This document shows, piece after piece, positions 14,592 to 64,000 of a stretch of 64,000 nucleotides of DNA (position 1 is the first letter of the stretch; every line of letters starts with the position of its first letter). Made by a program: the position numbers and the translations under genes. The stretch is from a virus (lineage: Duplodnaviria; Caudoviricetes), in IMG/VR virus record IMGVR_UViG_3300029305_003110, positions 32,001 through 96,000 of that record. The stretch is one strand, 5' to 3'. The notes under the pieces were generated by a model. It was not told where the DNA came from. It saw only the letters and a list, made by a program, of their open reading frames with translations, and did no database searches.

Positions 14592-14620
14592 TATCTTGTA
14601 ACAGAGGAGAATAAAAATGA

Positions 14621-37110: not shown

Positions 37111-37150
37111 TTTATTTTTTATTATATGAACACAATTATAATTATATTAT

Positions 37151-37237
37151 GCGAGAGTGGCAGAATAGGCATATGCAGCGGACTTAAAATCCGCCGTCCG
37201 TGAGGAATTGAGGGTTCAAGTCCCTCCTCTCGCACCA
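37151..37237 (+). tRNA. trnL: tRNA-Leu(TAA)
   Basis: GCGAGAG/CTCTCGC acceptor, GCGGA-CTTAAAA-TCCGC anticodon arm, long variable arm, GGTTCAAG, encoded CCA. Confidence 0.95.
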
Positions 37238-37284
37238 CCAAAATACATTTCCCCAAGAGTAAATGTGTTCATTTTTTTCTCCTA

Positions 37285-59733: not shown

Positions 59734-61857
59734 TTATTTCTTTGTAGACATCATTTTCGGTATGCTCTTAAGTTTATATTTCTCGATAGCTTCTTTCATA
59801 AATAATTTATGAATATCGACGGATTTATCAGAAATAACTTTAGCATACTTACCTTTCTTTGTCATTTCAAAACTATTAAATGAATCCTTATAATACATTG
59901 ATAAAATCTTCATAAGTTTCGATTTTGCTTCAGTATCCTTAACAGGTATTAATAATTCGAATCTCTTATCGAGGTTTCTTGTCAACAAATCTGCACTAGA
60001 AATATATATTTCCGGATTTTTATTATTATGAAAATAATATATTCTGCTATGCTCTAAAAATCTTCCAACTATACTGCGTATTTTAATATTGCTATTTATT
60101 GGCTTGATGGAACATATACCTCGACAGAATATCATTATCTTAACACCTTTCTCAGATGCCTCATATATCTTATCTATCATTTTCTTATCTGAAATAGAAT
60201 TCATTTTGAGAGTAACTATTGCTGTCTTTCCATTTTTAGCATTCTTAATTTCATTATCAATAGATTCGATAATAGTTTTTCTAAGATTATATGGTGAAAA
60301 GTATAATTTATTTATCTTGGTAGTCGGTTCAGAAAAGCCAGATAACATATTGAACACTGTAATCAGATCAATACCTACTTTGTAGTTCGATGTGAAGTAA
60401 GATATGTCAGTATACAGCTTAGCAGTCTTATCATTATAGTTACCGGTCCCAACATGAGAATAAATCTTCAATCCTTTCTTTGATTTTCTAACAACTATTA
60501 TAAATTTACAATGTGTCTTTAACTCTTCATCACCATATATTAAATTACATCCAGACATTTTAAGCTTTTCTATAAGAGAAATATTTCTTTCCTCATCAAA
60601 TCTGGCTTTTAATTCTAATATAACCGCAACCTGTTTTCCATTACGAGCAGCCTGACACAATGCCTCGACAATTGGAGAATCTATTGAAGAAACTCTATAC
60701 AGAGTTTGTTTTATAGATATAACATCCGGGTCATTTGATGCGTGCTCAAGGAACTTAATTATTGGGTCGTATGATTCATATGGATGATGTAATAGTATAT
60801 CTCCACCATCAATAGCAGTGAACATATCGTGTTCACCTATAAGCTCTGATGGATACTGCGGAGAGAACTTATCATACTTTGTCCCGTCTTTATTAGAAGT
60901 AATCTCTTGAAGAGATTTAAAATCGATAGGCTCATCGCTAACATAAACATGCTTCTTATTTAAATCAAAAATCTTTGTTAATAACTTTACCATAGATTTA
61001 GATAAATTACTTGTAACATCCATATATATTGGTCTACTGTATCGTCTTTCCAATAATGTGCTTTTCATTCTATCTGTAATATAAACGTCTTTATCATGAT
61101 TTACTTCTATATCTGCTTCACGAAGAATTTTAATTGTTCCATAGTCCACAATCTTTTTATTATAATATATTCTATCCAAAAATGAATATATTATTTCTTC
61201 TAATAAAACATATTTTTTACGATTATTAGATGTAGGAACCTCGTAAATCCTTACCAATGAGTTGTCTAATGGTATAAATGACACAACCTGATTGTTTGTA
61301 TTCTGTGTATCTTCTAATGAAACAACAATATTTAATTGTTTTGACATAAGATCGGGAAACTCTTTGGTTGTATCGAAGTTAATTGGTGTTAACAAAGGAA
61401 ATATTTTATTATTAAATATATTAGTAATATAACCTTTTTCGCTTTTACTCAAATCATCAAATGTGCATATTTCTATTCCTTGCTTTTTAAGCTTATCTAA
61501 TAGTTTATTATAACATTTGATTTGCAAATCTCTAAACTTCTGTATTGATTTTAACAAAGTCTGATACTCTACTTCAGGACTCATTCCTGATAGTTCTTTT
61601 TCACGAGTCCCTTTAATTAATCTGTTAATGACTGTTGAAAATCTTACCATAATGAATTCGTCTAAATTGGATGTTGTTATAGCTAAAAAGTTTAACCGTT
61701 CTAACAATGGGATATCTTTTCTCATTGTCTGAAACAGTACTCTTTTGTTAAACTCAATCCAACTTAGTTCACGATTAATATATTTCGGATTATTGAAATA
61801 ATTATCATGAATCGAATCCTCAAACTTTTCTAAGATATTACGTTCGTCCTTATTCAT
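59734..61857 (-). CDS. ppk1: polyphosphate kinase 1
   Basis: NRELSWIEFNKRVL, SNLDEFIMVR, DILLHHPYESY, IKQTLYR, ELKARFDE, KTHCK (catalytic His), GTGNYN, SIVGRFLEHSRIY, SSAD. Confidence 0.95.
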   Translation of the reverse strand: MNKDERNILEKFEDSIHDNYFNNPKYINRELSWIEFNKRVLFQTMRKDIPLLERLNFLAITTSNLDEFIMVRFSTVINRLIKGTREKELSGMSPEVEYQTLLKSIQKFRDLQIKCYNKLLDKLKKQGIEICTFDDLSKSEKGYITNIFNNKIFPLLTPINFDTTKEFPDLMSKQLNIVVSLEDTQNTNNQVVSFIPLDNSLVRIYEVPTSNNRKKYVLLEEIIYSFLDRIYYNKKIVDYGTIKILREADIEVNHDKDVYITDRMKSTLLERRYSRPIYMDVTSNLSKSMVKLLTKIFDLNKKHVYVSDEPIDFKSLQEITSNKDGTKYDKFSPQYPSELIGEHDMFTAIDGGDILLHHPYESYDPIIKFLEHASNDPDVISIKQTLYRVSSIDSPIVEALCQAARNGKQVAVILELKARFDEERNISLIEKLKMSGCNLIYGDEELKTHCKFIIVVRKSKKGLKIYSHVGTGNYNDKTAKLYTDISYFTSNYKVGIDLITVFNMLSGFSEPTTKINKLYFSPYNLRKTIIESIDNEIKNAKNGKTAIVTLKMNSISDKKMIDKIYEASEKGVKIMIFCRGICSIKPINSNIKIRSIVGRFLEHSRIYYFHNNKNPEIYISSADLLTRNLDKRFELLIPVKDTEAKSKLMKILSMYYKDSFNSFEMTKKGKYAKVISDKSVDIHKLFMKEAIEKYKLKSIPKMMSTKK

Positions 61858-61988: not shown

Positions 61989-63242
61989 TTATTTTTCTTC
62001 ATCTAAATCAAATAAGTCTTTAATTAATGAATTGATGTAAAAAGTATTAACAAATATTATCAGCCTATACGTTGATGATGGGTTTATTTTTTTAGTTATT
62101 AGTTTAAATTCATCAAAATCTAATTCATAATCAATATGTGGTTTAAGAGTTTGATTATCTTTCATAACAGTATATTGCATAAATGTCGACAATGGTATTC
62201 CATGCTCTTTATGATATTCAATACACCGCATCATACTATTGTTAAATAGTTGTTTTATATCCATAATATCCGGATCAGCATGTGCATCTACCATATATAT
62301 TGGTGAAGTATATATGTTCCAACCATCAGCAATACGTTCTTTATATAAGTTATTTATTGTAAATAACGGTATTAATCTATTTGGGTCTCCATCGTGCATA
62401 CCTATAACAAAGTCGTCAATCCATTCGGGATGCTCTGCAAAATAATAGTATAAGCCAGATGCATTAAATTCTGTAGATACAGTAAAAGATATAGTATGTG
62501 TATCTGCGATCATGCCCTTTTTATTTCCTTCATCTATCGCAAGACCTGATATAGTGGTATCAATATTTACAGGATAAAATCTAAAAAATTCATCATTTCC
62601 AGTCGAGTTTTTCATCTTATAGGAGATTGGATACATAGAAACACTATTAACATAGTCTAAAAATGGTTTAATAGAACCATTTTCGTCATACATTTCCATT
62701 CCTATATCTTTTGCCATTAATTCAAACAATTCCCTTGGAATAAAACTCTCCAAACATGTTTTCAAAAAAAATGGCTTCTCTTGTCTTACTCTATTTTTAA
62801 AGAAATGAGCTTGATTAAGTTGTTCCATTTGGGTTTCTGTAACAATAGTAATATCAAAGAACATCTTCAATCTATTTAATAGAAATTTTATTTGATTTCC
62901 TTTAGATTTATCATTTATAAATGGTTGTAAATTAGTAAAGCTTGTATCTATATAGTTATCCATCATTCGAGTTGTCAACAGTGTATTATATAAAAATGTA
63001 TCAGAATCATTCAATTCAACCCTAGGTCGTATGATTAACATAGGTTTAGATTTTCTTAGGAATTCTTTATTGGTATTCTGAAATATATTAAATTGTCTAT
63101 ATGCTATAGTTGAACTAATATGCACTGTTTTAAAATAATTTTCAGGAAATAATCCTTTTATATATTCAGTTATAAAACAGGTAATATTTCCATATGTATG
63201 TGCTAATGATGTTTGAGCCATACAATAACCCATTACAATCAC
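61989..63242 (-). CDS. putative virion structural protein of AR9-like jumbo phages
   Basis: 417 aa ORF; AACA-N6-TA at 63256..63267 upstream; family assignment is recollection, not verified. Confidence 0.55.
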   Translation of the reverse strand: MIVMGYCMAQTSLAHTYGNITCFITEYIKGLFPENYFKTVHISSTIAYRQFNIFQNTNKEFLRKSKPMLIIRPRVELNDSDTFLYNTLLTTRMMDNYIDTSFTNLQPFINDKSKGNQIKFLLNRLKMFFDITIVTETQMEQLNQAHFFKNRVRQEKPFFLKTCLESFIPRELFELMAKDIGMEMYDENGSIKPFLDYVNSVSMYPISYKMKNSTGNDEFFRFYPVNIDTTISGLAIDEGNKKGMIADTHTISFTVSTEFNASGLYYYFAEHPEWIDDFVIGMHDGDPNRLIPLFTINNLYKERIADGWNIYTSPIYMVDAHADPDIMDIKQLFNNSMMRCIEYHKEHGIPLSTFMQYTVMKDNQTLKPHIDYELDFDEFKLITKKINPSSTYRLIIFVNTFYINSLIKDLFDLDEEK

Positions 63243-63456
63243 TTCCTCTCATATTTATTTAAATGTTTTTAGATATATTATCAACATAAAATTAAAAAAA
63301 AAGATACCTGCTGGTTACAGATATCTTTTTAAAGTTATATTGTTACATCTACGGTAATAATATGTAAAACAATCATTCAAAATCACGGATTTATCATATT
63401 AGATAAATCCGTAAAATATATTTTTAAATATTATATGATGGTATTAACATAATTAT

Positions 63457-63595
63457 AATTATCAACGTTAATTACTCTTTAAGATATATACATTTATAGT
63501 CACCTCCTTATAGAATATAAATATATACCGGTATCTTAAAGAGTAATTTATTTGCGGAATCTAGAAATTAATCTAGATTCCGCATTATATTTTTT
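63457..63595 (+). ncRNA. candidate small RNA: long hairpin with anti-Shine-Dalgarno loop plus terminator
   Basis: AACA-N6-TA at 63446..63457; stem 63470-63498/63516-63548; loop GTCACCTCCTTATAGAA; terminator 63553..63584 plus T-run. Confidence 0.4.
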
Positions 63596-64000
63596 ATTTA
63601 CCTATATAACGTAACATATTTCTTATCATTGTTGCAACTTCTGCACGTGAAATTAATCTTTCTCCGTCAAAAGTACCGTCTTCATATCCATTGATAACTC
63701 CCATATTGTATAAGTCGTTAACATGATAATATGCCCAATGGTCTTTAGCAACATCTAGCATTGTCTTATTATGAGCAATACTCGGTTTACCGATAAGATA
63801 ATTCATTGCATTACGAACTATTACGGCAACTTCAAATCTGGTAATTTTTCTGTCTGGTGAGAATTTGCGAACACCTGTTCCATTAACAATTCCCATATTA
63901 TATGCAGCAGTAACATGTGTGTATGCCCAATTAGATTGAGCGATATCACTAAATACTTTATCTGTATATGTGTAATTGTATTTAGTACCACAATATTTTA
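63594..64000 (-). CDS. S-layer homology (SLH) domain protein, 5' end outside window
   Basis: FSDIAQSNWAYTHV..AYNMGIVNG...FSPDRKITRFE and DVAKDHWAY...GVINGYEDGTFDGERLISRAE; the frame stays open to the window edge. Confidence 0.85.
   Translation of the reverse strand, partial: KYCGTKYNYTYTDKVFSDIAQSNWAYTHVTAAYNMGIVNGTGVRKFSPDRKITRFEVAVIVRNAMNYLIGKPSIAHNKTMLDVAKDHWAYYHVNDLYNMGVINGYEDGTFDGERLISRAEVATMIRNMLRYIGK

What the first reader, a model, noticed from the sequence alone, without database searches (positions are those of the whole stretch)
63446..63595. Candidate phage sRNA displaying a 16S-rRNA-3'-end (anti-SD) mimic in a hairpin loop
Seen: a late promoter motif (63446..63457) precedes a stem of about 29 bp, made of a perfect 17-bp AATTACTCTTTAAGATA/TATCTTAAAGAGTAATT plus 12 bp with one mismatch and a CCGG bulge. 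Its loop contains TCACCTCCTTA, matching the 16S 3' terminus, and a 13-bp hairpin with a + strand T-run follows. Inference: an RNA that base-pairs with strong SD sequences to silence host or early mRNAs. Alternative: on the minus strand the loop exposes AAGGAGGTG before a 4-codon ORF (MYIS) and the mismatch becomes G.U, suggesting a ribosome or CsrA decoy or a leader. With the anti-RBS tracts at 14604 and 37270, this may be an undescribed RNA-based translation-control layer in this phage group.
Basis: partly seen in the sequence, partly recalled or inferred. Interest (0 to 1): 0.75.

Follow-up and report, generated by a model that had tools for sequence, protein, structure and literature searches.

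The report
Candidate late small RNA beside endolysin
In an uncultured giant phage related to Bacillus phage AR9, the gap after the cell-wall-cutting (endolysin) gene looks like a small non-coding RNA gene whose long hairpin carries a ribosome-binding-site look-alike at its tip, but it is unique to this phage and its expression and function are untested.

Summary
The promoter motif, the 17+12-bp hairpin with CCGG bulge, the TCACCTCCTTA loop and the 13-bp hairpin with a + strand T-run all lie at the stated coordinates. The fold beats all 200 shuffles on both strands.

The window is part of a 209.8-kb AR9-like jumbo phage. The element sits in a 351-nt gap between two minus-strand genes: an Amidase_2+SLH endolysin and a 417-aa AR9 g251 homologue.

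New evidence favours a real + strand unit. AACA(N6)TA is this phage's late promoter motif. The gap holds two + strand copies scoring about 14 bits, against 0.004 expected, with no + strand ORF and a + oriented terminator. That predicts a ~140-nt late RNA, convergent with the endolysin gene.

The minus strand reads as a textbook start site: an 11-nt SD, 9-nt spacing, ATG, then only 4 codons. The fold is stronger there, and two minus-strand terminators follow. Both strands are probably transcribed.

Nothing supports selective silencing. Early and late start sites pair equally well, and the endolysin site ranks 19th of 223. No counterpart was found in 12 related loci or 8 related phage records. 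No RNA data exist.

Verdict: plausible phage antisense or anti-SD sRNA. It is a new member of a known kind, of moderate interest.

The parts
63283..63294 (+). Upstream late-promoter motif P1 (AACATAAAATTA). Predicted start at 63294. It is preceded by an early-like ATATATTAT at 63273-63281.
   Evidence: PWM score 14.1 bits. It was not in the training set. Chance rate for 14 bits or more is 1.15e-5 per nt per strand. The early-like motif is listed. It has G, not the usual T, before it, so it is doubtful.
63298..63330 (-). Terminator T3, followed by nine T on the minus strand. It lies just upstream of the 417-aa gene's own late promoter (motif start 63267, 17.3 bits).
   Evidence: Terminator scan. 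Folds at -14.9 kcal/mol (z -5.7) on the minus strand and -9.1 (z -2.2) on the plus strand.
63383..63414 (-). Terminator-like hairpin T2 (13 pairs, tail TTTTGAATGA) on the minus strand.
63446..63457 (+). Late-promoter motif P2 (AACATAATTATA). Predicted start is the A at 63457.
   Evidence: PWM score 14.3 bits, 25th highest genome-wide. A 16-of-17 match to it, AACACAATTATAATTAT, sits 12 nt before a tRNA gene at 37129. The AR9 consensus is AACA-(6N)-TA/G with the last base as the start (PMC5312081, passages read).
63470..63548 (.). Long hairpin. Lower stem 63470-63486 / 63532-63548 (17 bp, perfect). CCGG bulge 63528-63531. Upper stem 63487-63501 / 63513-63527. Apical loop of about 11 nt.
63500..63510 (+). 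TCACCTCCTTA in the apical loop. On the + strand RNA this is an anti-SD-like tract.
   Evidence: Predicted unpaired.
63479..63510 (-). Minus-strand start-site look-alike: SD TAAGGAGGTGA (63510-63500), ATG at 63493-63491, 4 codons MYIS, stop at 63481-63479.
   Evidence: The 9-nt spacing from GGAGG to ATG falls in the modal 7-10 nt range of real genes (57 of 75). The SD is longer than in any of 72 real start sites. No ORF of 20 aa or more starts there.
63553..63599 (+). Terminator T1: 13-bp stem with 6 G-C pairs, then a T-run on the + strand that overlaps the endolysin stop codon (63594-63596). There is no T-run on the minus strand.
   Evidence: Hairpins of similar sequence with an AATTAA loop occur in related phages.
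63594..64000 (-). 3' part of the endolysin gene (346 aa in full; it runs beyond the window end).
   Evidence: Pfam Amidase_2 plus 3 SLH stretches. PHROG amidase/endolysin families. SLH also found.
61989..63242 (-). 417-aa gene downstream on the minus strand. It is a homologue of AR9 g251 and belongs to phrog_21946.

Best explanation
The gap encodes a discrete non-coding RNA of about 140 nt on the + strand. It is made late in infection by the phage's own AR9-type non-virion RNA polymerase from P2, starting near 63457. A longer form of about 300 nt may start at P1. Both would end at terminator T1, near 63590-63599.

This RNA converges on the endolysin gene. Its body is one long bulged hairpin that presents a C-rich, anti-SD-like loop.

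T1 has no U-tract in the endolysin's direction, and two proper minus-strand terminators (T2, T3) lie further on. The endolysin mRNA therefore most likely runs through the hairpin region. Its tail would then carry the mirror hairpin with the complementary SD loop.

Inferred mechanism: the two late RNAs first meet through their G+C-rich complementary loops. They then zip into a duplex, which host RNase III could trim. This would set the 3' end, stability or yield of the endolysin message, in the manner of lambda OOP acting on cII. A secondary action in trans on SD regions is possible. The endolysin's own start site shares 12 contiguous nt with the hairpin.

Shown: the sequence anatomy, the promoter statistics and the terminator polarity. 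Inferred: that either RNA exists, that they pair, and any effect on lysis.
For: (1) Phage type. The flanking 417-aa protein has homologues only in AR9/PBS1-like jumbo phages of Bacillus, Staphylococcus, Listeria and Yersinia (21 records; AR9 g251).

(2) AACA(N6)T[AG] is this phage's late promoter motif. 48 sites lie 25-65 nt upstream of ORF starts. Of the 30 sites scoring 14 bits or more, 25 lie 15-130 nt before an ORF of 50 aa or more. One more (genome position 49974) precedes a shorter ORF. Two of the remaining four lie in this gap, both on the + strand.

(3) Chance expectation for a site of 14 bits or more on one strand of the 351-nt gap is 0.004. The probability of two is about 8e-6, under a Markov model of the intergenic sequence.

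(4) The minus strand between 63300 and 63900 has no late-promoter hit of 4 bits or more other than the 417-aa gene's own.

(5) T1 is predicted as a terminator on the + strand only. T2 and T3 are predicted on the minus strand only. T3 folds at -14.9 on the minus strand and -9.1 on the plus strand.

(6) No + strand ORF of 20 aa or more lies within the unit, apart from a 20-codon TTG frame across T1.

(7) Under fixed criteria, only two loci in the genome form compact late-promoter-to-terminator units without an ORF. This is one of them.

(8) The predicted 140-nt RNA folds with z -9.8.

(9) The longest SD-containing match to the hairpin tip anywhere in the genome is the adjacent endolysin start site (12 nt, AGGTGACTATAA). 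By hybrid energy alone, that site is the third best trans site in the genome.

(10) In AR9, seven late promoters drive antisense transcripts (PMC5312081, passage read).
Against: - No RNA evidence. All 8 runs that hold this DNA are DNA runs.
- No conservation. None of the 12 closest loci around the 417-aa homologue has a counterpart. BLAST in 11 related records matched only short stretches; the best was 38 nt of the terminator. A covariance model over 8 related records (1.69 Mb) gave 15 matches at E up to 10. The three shown aligned only the terminator, 11 of the other 12 are too short to hold the hairpin, and two 119-127-nt matches (E 3.6 and 4.9) were not inspected. The endolysin itself has no homologue in the three relatives checked by tblastn.
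- Covariation cannot be tested. Contigs from other samples are letter-identical over the gap.
- The hairpin is stronger on the minus strand (-28.6 against -23.2).
- The minus strand has a start site with modal spacing, which a pure + strand function does not need.
- When the cost of opening the hairpin is included, the endolysin start site ranks only 19th of 223.
- My gene-end survey found several hairpins just past gene ends that lack a T-run in the gene's direction. T1 could therefore also serve the endolysin mRNA, and read-through is not certain.
- P1 is followed at once by the T3 hairpin.
Confidence: 0.4

Rival explanations
1. The functional strand is the minus strand. The hairpin lies in the endolysin mRNA's 3' tail and displays an extra-long SD in its loop, with the ATG tucked into the weak upper stem and a 4-codon frame. 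It would dock a 30S subunit or ribosome as a stabiliser, decoy or mini-ORF/leader element. The + strand promoters would then give only incidental or modulating antisense RNA.
For: - SD plus ATG with 9-nt spacing, the modal range for real genes (57 of 75 at 7-10 nt; ATG in 68 of 75).
- The SD matches TAAGGAGGTGA over 11 nt. Among 72 real start sites, 69 match over 5-8 nt, 2 over 9 and 1 over 10. This looks selected for maximal 16S pairing and not for ordinary initiation.
- The fold is stronger on the minus strand because the mismatch becomes G.U.
- Two minus-strand terminators follow.
- All neighbouring genes are on the minus strand.
Against: - No minus-strand promoter of either class lies near it, so it depends on read-through past T1.
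- It sits after the coding region with nothing downstream to protect or couple to. T2, T3 and a separate late promoter precede the next gene.
- Known SD-type stabilisers act at 5' ends (recalled knowledge).
- It does not explain two strong + strand late promoters and a + oriented terminator.
- It is not conserved.
Confidence: 0.22
2. The element is an evolutionary leftover without a present function. It would be the start region of a lost gene, or a partial copy of the endolysin's start region, made palindromic by an inverted duplication or template switch when the lineage-specific endolysin cassette was acquired. Any transcripts would be pervasive late or antisense noise.
For: - The endolysin and this gap are lineage-specific. 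There is no endolysin homologue in three relatives. The amidase part is about 72% identical in DNA to many unrelated small phages.
- There is a 12-nt identity and a 68-column local alignment with the endolysin start region. Its score is 40, against a shuffle mean of 25.4 (sd 3.5), and 1 of 500 shuffles reached it.
- It is single-copy and unconserved.
Against: - The alignment score of 40 is barely above what other genes' upstream regions give (39, 38, 37).
- A perfect 17-bp plus 12-bp hairpin, an 11-nt SD longer than any real one, two promoter motifs of about 14 bits and three correctly placed terminators are many intact signals for a decaying remnant in an AT-rich genome.
- A relic gene start would not be expected just behind a terminator hairpin.
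Confidence: 0.2
3. The + strand RNA acts mainly in trans as a mimic of the 16S rRNA 3' tail. An abundant late RNA would occupy strong SD sequences of host or phage mRNAs, or titrate a factor that recognises the rRNA tail, and so reshape translation globally.
For: - The loop holds a tract identical to the 3' end of Firmicute 16S rRNA over 10 nt (recalled). It is predicted unpaired.
- 20 of the 24 best predicted trans sites in the genome, including the best four, carry an SD with a start codon a few nt downstream.
- There is a late promoter and a terminator.
- In the first four records examined, all compact orphan late units held CCUCC.
Against: - About 28 of the phage's own genes carry AAGGAGG, so it would also hit its own late messages.
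- There is no difference between early and late start sites.
- Net predicted binding energies are modest, -7 to -9 kcal/mol.
- The class prediction failed in the test set, 1 of 6.
- The ATG at correct spacing on the other strand is unexplained. Its chance is about 7% by my estimate from base composition.
Confidence: 0.1
4. It is a DNA-level element: a protein-binding palindrome, a recombination site or an origin.
For: A perfect 17-bp inverted repeat lies in an AT-rich gap with several other palindromes.
Against: - GC skew simply follows gene strand, with no switch here.
- It is single-copy, with no direct repeats or iterons.
- There is no integrase or replication gene beside it.
- The SD content of the loop is unexplained.
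Confidence: 0.04

Closest known systems
Lambda OOP RNA acting on cII mRNA, a phage cis-antisense sRNA with RNase III-dependent decay. P22 sar/ant is of the same kind. Recalled; search listing and abstracts only, (PMC5869508, PMC5415839).
   Same: A short phage RNA with its own promoter and an intrinsic terminator. It is transcribed convergently into the 3' end of a neighbouring gene's message and is fully complementary to it.
   Different: - The promoter here is for an AR9-type phage polymerase and is late.
- The overlap would be with a 3' untranslated tail and only a few nt of coding sequence.
- The partner gene is an endolysin.
- Neither RNA has been observed.
C-rich-loop sRNAs of Firmicutes (RsaE/RoxS). 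Search listing and abstracts only, (PMC6158497, PMC8216469, PMC5419742).
   Same: An unpaired C-rich tract in a hairpin loop that can pair with G-rich SD regions, in a Firmicute-type setting, with a terminator at the 3' end.
   Different: - No sequence or structure homology. No Rfam family was matched, even at E up to 10.
- There is a single loop carrying a full 10-11-nt anti-SD tract in place of short UCCC/CCC motifs.
- It is phage-encoded.
- No specific target was identified.
AR9 late antisense transcripts (PMC5312081; passages read).
   Same: The same promoter type, AACA-(6N)-TA/G. AR9 has seven late promoters that drive antisense RNAs, mostly seen at the end of infection.
   Different: - The AR9 cases are antisense to coding genes, including g251, the homologue of the neighbouring 417-aa gene.
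- The unit here lies in a non-coding gap and ends at its own terminator.
- AR9's promoter tables are supplements that I could not see.
Antisense stem-loops of plasmid copy-control systems (CopA/CopT, RNAI) and SD-type mRNA stabilisers (STAB-SD of cryIIIA, SP82 polypurine element). Recalled; no paper read.
   Same: - A long stem with a bulge and a mismatch in the upper part and a G+C-rich loop, as in kissing-loop antisense RNAs.
- An SD-like tract not tied to a real gene, as in STAB-SD.
   Different: - There is no replication gene or coupled leader peptide downstream.
- STAB-SD elements sit at 5' ends and lack a start codon. This one sits in a 3' tail and has an ATG.

Membership tests
AR9-type late (non-virion RNA polymerase) promoter | Motif AACA-(6N)-TA/G, with the last base as the start (PMC5312081). 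| tested here: met
   AACATAATTATA at 63446 and AACATAAAATTA at 63283.
AR9-type late (non-virion RNA polymerase) promoter | The motif is used by this phage: it is enriched at a fixed distance upstream of genes. | tested here: met
   48 sites lie 25-65 nt upstream of ORF starts. 26 of the 30 sites of 14 bits or more precede ORFs. The chance rate is 1.15e-5 per nt.
AR9-type late (non-virion RNA polymerase) promoter | A mapped 5' end at the predicted base, appearing late in infection. | not testable with these tools
   No RNA run holds the locus.
Intrinsic (factor-independent) terminator | A G+C-containing stem-loop directly followed by a T-run on the transcribed strand. | tested here: met
   T1 on the + strand has 13 pairs (6 G-C) and the tail TTATATTTTT. 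It is not predicted on the minus strand.
Any curated RNA family (Rfam 15) | Covariance-model match at the gathering score. | tested here: not met
   The best match is mir-1277 at 23.7 bits, against a gathering score of 81. Nothing is credible at E up to 10.
Cis-antisense sRNA (OOP-like) | Own promoter and terminator, with no ORF. | tested here: met
   These are predictions only.
Cis-antisense sRNA (OOP-like) | An overlapping sense transcript exists and is cleaved or destabilised on pairing. | not testable with these tools
   Read-through of T1 is inferred from the missing U-tract and from T2/T3 downstream. One search shows this inference is not safe.
C-rich-loop anti-SD sRNA (RsaE/RoxS-like) | An unpaired C-rich motif in a loop. 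| tested here: met
   ACCUCCUUAUA is unpaired in the MFE and centroid structures.
C-rich-loop anti-SD sRNA (RsaE/RoxS-like) | Homology to the family. | tested here: not met
   No RsaE or other sRNA family match.
C-rich-loop anti-SD sRNA (RsaE/RoxS-like) | Defined mRNA targets with extended pairing at the SD. | tested here: inconclusive
   The endolysin start site shares a 12-nt match. It ranks third by hybrid energy but 19th of 223 once opening costs are counted.
Protein-coding gene start | SD and start codon at the working distance. | tested here: met
   9 nt from GGAGG to ATG. The modal range is 7-10 nt.
Protein-coding gene start | An open reading frame behind it. | tested here: not met
   4 codons then TAA. 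No ORF of 20 aa or more.
Conserved structured RNA | Presence and compensatory changes in relatives. | tested here: not met
   No counterpart was found in 12 related loci or 11 records by BLAST. A covariance-model search of 8 records gave none among the 3 alignments shown; 12 weaker matches, two of them near full length (E 3.6 and 4.9), were not inspected. Copies from other samples are identical.

The most novel reading that the evidence does not exclude
The hairpin RNA is a true mimic of the 16S rRNA 3' tail, made in bulk late in infection by the phage's own polymerase. It would act as a decoy that occupies SD sequences, or that soaks up a host or phage factor recognising the ribosomal anti-SD tail, and so re-programme translation globally. 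Related jumbo phages may carry non-homologous RNAs with the same CCUCC device. Units with that motif were seen in G000 (two), G002, G003 and G005.
Probability: 0.08. Interest if true: 0.85.

Novelty: new member of a known kind. Interest (0 to 1): 0.4.

Why it matters
If the RNA exists, it would be the first candidate sRNA gene driven by the unusual template-strand-reading polymerase of AR9-like jumbo phages. It would also be a rare case of RNA-level control placed directly beside a lysis gene, and would give a handle on lysis timing in a phage group that ignores host transcription.

The locus also gives a clean test bed. It offers one promoter, one hairpin and one terminator for checking whether the AR9 promoter rule holds in uncultured gut relatives.

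If it is only a remnant, it still marks the seam of a recently swapped endolysin cassette.

Tried and rejected
- **RNA evidence.** The look-up of sequencing runs listed 8 holders and no RNA holder.
- **Contigs from other samples.** Read laying on 4 DNA runs gave identical short contigs over the gap, so no variation to use. Contigs of about 81% identity aligned only to 62917-63227 and left the alignment at the gene start.
- **Direct DNA searches.**
  - blastn of 2 kb against GenBank phages: no match.
  - An exact 22-mer in IMG/VR: none.
  - A 19-mer in 185,579 bacterial genomes: 5 scattered hits, about what chance gives.
- **Relatives through the 417-aa protein.**
  - The single sequence found 1 locus in IMG/VR and none in metagenomes.
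  - An alignment found 29 viral loci and 6 metagenome loci. The closest is 68% identical.
  - None has the element.
- **Relatives through the endolysin.** 80 loci were found, all unrelated small phages sharing the amidase. None matches the gap.
- **Whole-record searches.** BLAST in 11 records and a covariance model in 8 records produced terminator-only matches.
- **Energy ranking.** The 100-nt window holding the hairpin ranks 280th (+) and 52nd (-) of 10,484. Raw energy is dominated by G+C content, so I relied on z-scores instead.
- **Terminator loop polarity.** AATTAA loops occur in both orientations relative to genes (my reading), so this idea was dropped.
- **Endolysin as a specific target.** Not distinctive once hairpin opening is counted.
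- **Early versus late targets.** No difference.
- **Family of anti-SD sRNAs.** 4 of 4 units in the discovery set but 1 of 6 in the test set. Not confirmed.
- **Second compact unit** (genome 3148, + strand). No start-site-like target was found for it.
- **Origin of replication.** No skew signal.
- **Calls that could not be answered.** Earlier findings were not open.
- **Supplements.** AR9 Tables S2-S3 (promoter lists) are supplements and could not be seen. They may show whether AR9 itself has orphan late promoters of this kind.
Full report
**1. What is there**

The window is bases 32001-96000 of a 209,768-bp IMG/VR virus record with 29.6% G+C.

The finding lies in a 351-nt gap (63243-63593) between two minus-strand genes.
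- Upstream on that strand is a 346-aa endolysin with Amidase_2 and three SLH stretches. Its stop codon is at 63594-63596.
- Downstream is a 417-aa protein of phrog_21946. Its only GenBank phage homologues are in AR9/PBS1-like jumbo phages of Bacillus, Staphylococcus, Listeria and Yersinia (21 records). In AR9 it is g251.

- AACATAATTATA at 63446-63457.
- A perfect 17-bp stem, 63470-63486 / 63532-63548.
- A second stem of about 12-13 bp with one C.A mismatch, which is G.U on the other strand.
- A CCGG bulge at 63528-63531.
- TCACCTCCTTA at 63500-63510 in the loop.
- A perfect 13-bp hairpin at 63553-63584, followed by a T-run on the + strand.

The hairpin alone folds at -23.2 kcal/mol on + (z -5.3) and -28.6 on - (z -7.3). 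None of 200 shuffles reached either value. Rfam has nothing, even at E up to 10.

**2. Is the 'late promoter' real?**

In AR9 the late consensus is AACA-(6N)-TA/G, with the last base as the start. The early consensus is AAATATATATTAT-(6N)-G (PMC5312081, passages read). Both motifs are used by this phage.
- ATATATTAT is the most frequent intergenic 9-mer. It sits 28-90 nt upstream of many genes.
- AACA(N6)T[AG] piles up 25-65 nt upstream of 48 ORF starts.

I built a position matrix from those 48 sites. It adds a conserved A after TA.
- The site at 63446 scores 14.3 bits, 25th highest of all sites on both strands.
- A second + strand site at 63283 (AACATAAAATTA) scores 14.1 bits.
- Neither site was in the training set.

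Of the 30 sites at 14 bits or more:
- 25 lie 15-130 nt before an ORF of 50 aa or more.
- One more precedes a shorter ORF.
- Of the other four, two are these.

Under a first-order Markov model of the phage's intergenic DNA, such sites arise at 1.15e-5 per nt per strand. That gives 0.004 expected on one strand of this gap and about 8e-6 for two.

On the minus strand between 63300 and 63900 there is no late hit of 4 bits or more, other than the 417-aa gene's own promoter (17.3 bits). A 16-of-17 copy of the extended P2 sequence stands 12 nt before a tRNA gene at 37129.

**3. Terminator polarity**

The consensus scan finds three terminator-like sites in the gap, against 0.2 expected.
- T1 (63553-63584) is on the + strand only.
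- T2 (63414-63383) and T3 (63330-63298, followed by nine T) are on the minus strand only.
- T3 folds at -14.9 on the minus strand and -9.1 on the plus strand.

The + strand therefore reads P1, P2, long hairpin, T1, with no ORF. The minus strand reads endolysin stop, T1 without a U-tract, long hairpin, T2, T3, and then the next gene's own promoter.

The simplest reading is that both strands are transcribed across the hairpin late in infection. The + strand would give an RNA of about 140 nt (or about 300 nt from P1). The minus strand would give the endolysin message's tail.

One caution applies. My own survey of gene-end hairpins found several that lack a T-run in the gene's direction. Read-through of T1 is therefore inferred, not shown.

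**4. The minus-strand reading**

The complement of the loop is TAAGGAGGTGA. It is followed 7 nt later by ATG and then 4 codons.
- In real genes of this phage with a GGAGG core, the distance from GGAGG to the start is 7-10 nt in 57 of 75, and the start is ATG in 68 of 75. Here it is 9 nt and ATG.
- The SD is abnormal in length. Among 72 real start sites, the contiguous match to the 11-mer is 5-8 nt in 69, 9 in 2, 10 in 1 and never 11.

This argues against a plain decayed gene start. It argues for selection on maximal pairing with, or mimicry of, the 16S tail.

**5. Link to the endolysin**

The longest SD-containing match to the hairpin tip anywhere in the genome is the start site of the adjacent endolysin (AGGTGACTATAA, 12 nt).
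- A local alignment extends over 68 columns with score 40. Shuffles average 25.4 (sd 3.5), and 1 of 500 reached 40. Other genes' upstream regions score 39, 38 and 37, so homology is not established.
- By hybrid energy alone, the endolysin start site is the third best trans site for the hairpin tip.
- When the cost of opening the hairpin is counted, it ranks 19th of 223 (ddG -7.15; mean -4.4, sd 1.8).

**6. Tests of the 'silencing' idea**

- 20 of the 24 best predicted trans sites, including the best four, carry an SD with a start codon close downstream. Pairing is therefore generic for strong SDs.
- Start sites behind early-only promoters (n=20) and late-only promoters (n=42) do not differ in predicted pairing with the loop (p=0.26).
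- About 28 of the phage's own genes carry AAGGAGG.

**7. Relatives**

An alignment-based search found 29 viral loci with the 417-aa homologue, 12 of them at 48-68% identity, and 6 metagenome loci.

Upstream of the homologue these relatives have a compact terminator plus late promoter, or other small genes. None has the hairpin. One locus, L089, has a 12-bp hairpin pairing ACCTCCTTTACA with TGTAAAGGAGGT before a 3-codon frame. It is probably a terminator.

Further searches:
- BLAST in 11 records matched only short stretches; the best was 38 nt of the terminator.
- A covariance model of the 140-nt RNA over 8 whole records (1.69 Mb) gave 15 matches at E up to 10. The three alignments shown cover only the terminator. 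Most of the rest are too short to hold the hairpin, and two matches of 119-127 nt (E 3.6 and 4.9) were not inspected.
- The endolysin itself is absent from three relatives. Its amidase part resembles those of many small phages. The gene and its gap therefore look like a lineage-specific cassette.
- Contigs of the same phage from three other faecal runs (X4-X6) are letter-identical here.

Covariation cannot be assessed.

**8. Is there a class?**

I applied fixed criteria: a late site of 12 bits or more in non-coding DNA, no SD-led ORF before the next terminator, and a terminator within 320 nt.
- This genome has two compact orphan loci: this one and one at genome position 3148 (+). The second carries ACCUCCUCUC and ends at a + oriented terminator behind another minus-strand gene.
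- G002 and G003 each have one unit, both with CCUCC.
- As a test I fetched five more relatives. They hold six units, and only one has CCUCC.

The class idea is therefore unconfirmed.

**9. Verdict**

- **Best explanation (0.40):** a late, convergent, non-coding + strand RNA. It pairs through its C-rich loop with the complementary SD loop on the endolysin message's tail, and perhaps with start sites in trans. This would be an OOP-like antisense arrangement built on an AR9-type promoter.
- **Rivals:** a minus-strand ribosome-docking or mini-ORF element (0.22); a remnant of cassette exchange (0.20); a global 16S-tail mimic (0.10); a DNA-level site (0.04).

It is a new member of a known kind, phage-encoded antisense or anti-SD sRNAs. 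It is single-copy, unconserved and unobserved as RNA. Interest is moderate.

Noticed in passing
G000:C1:3137-3275 (outside the window; + strand): A second compact orphan unit. A late promoter AACATTATAGTA (13.6 bits) is followed by about 70 nt containing AAACCUCCUCUC, then a 17-bp terminator with a + strand T-run. It lies between two minus-strand genes: a 138-aa unknown and a phrog_3013 virion structural protein. The layout is the same as in the finding.
   Followed up: partly
G000:C1:124190-124475 (outside the window; minus strand): An orphan late promoter (15.1 bits) is followed by more than 260 nt without an ORF. This stretch contains a hairpin, a G+C-rich segment (gtaagtgggtaccgggagtgcggggagctcag) and a long purine-rich tail. 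It is a possible larger non-coding RNA. G003 has an orphan promoter (19.3 bits) at 192593 before a similarly G-rich structured stretch.
   Followed up: no
G000:C1:9750-10060 (outside the window; minus strand): An orphan late promoter (14.7 bits) reads into about 300 nt with repeated aatgagtca and tagtatca words. The stretch is iteron-like and could be a replication or binding region.
   Followed up: no
At 14604 the + strand has GAGGAG, then 7 nt, then ATG and 4 codons (MITF). Its complement UUCUCCUCU lies in the 3' trailer of a minus-strand mRNA, just before that mRNA's terminator. At 37270, UUUUUUCUCCUAAG lies between a tRNA and its terminator. Both tracts are in sense-strand trailers, and neither is in an orphan promoter unit.
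   Followed up: partly
window 37129-37240: A tRNA gene is preceded at 12 nt by a late-promoter motif (11.9 bits). Its extended sequence matches P2 of the finding at 16 of 17 positions. AR9's single tRNA gene is also in the late class (PMC5312081).
   Followed up: partly
window 59734-61857 (-): The phage encodes a full-length polyphosphate kinase 1, with all four PPK domains (Pfam E 1e-30 to 2e-67). An early-type promoter motif sits upstream. This is an unusual auxiliary gene for a jumbo phage.
   Followed up: no
L089:2900-2960 (G003): Upstream of the 417-aa homologue lies a 12-bp hairpin pairing ACCTCCTTTACA with TGTAAAGGAGGT, followed by ATG and 2 codons. The hairpin masks an SD and is probably a terminator.
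   Followed up: partly
L141:4475-4571, L148:17915-18000, L126:5119-5182: Terminators of related phages share the apical sequence AGAAATTAATCT / GGAATTAACC and the tail ATTATATT with T1 of the finding. This looks like a terminator 'family' within the phage group.
   Followed up: partly
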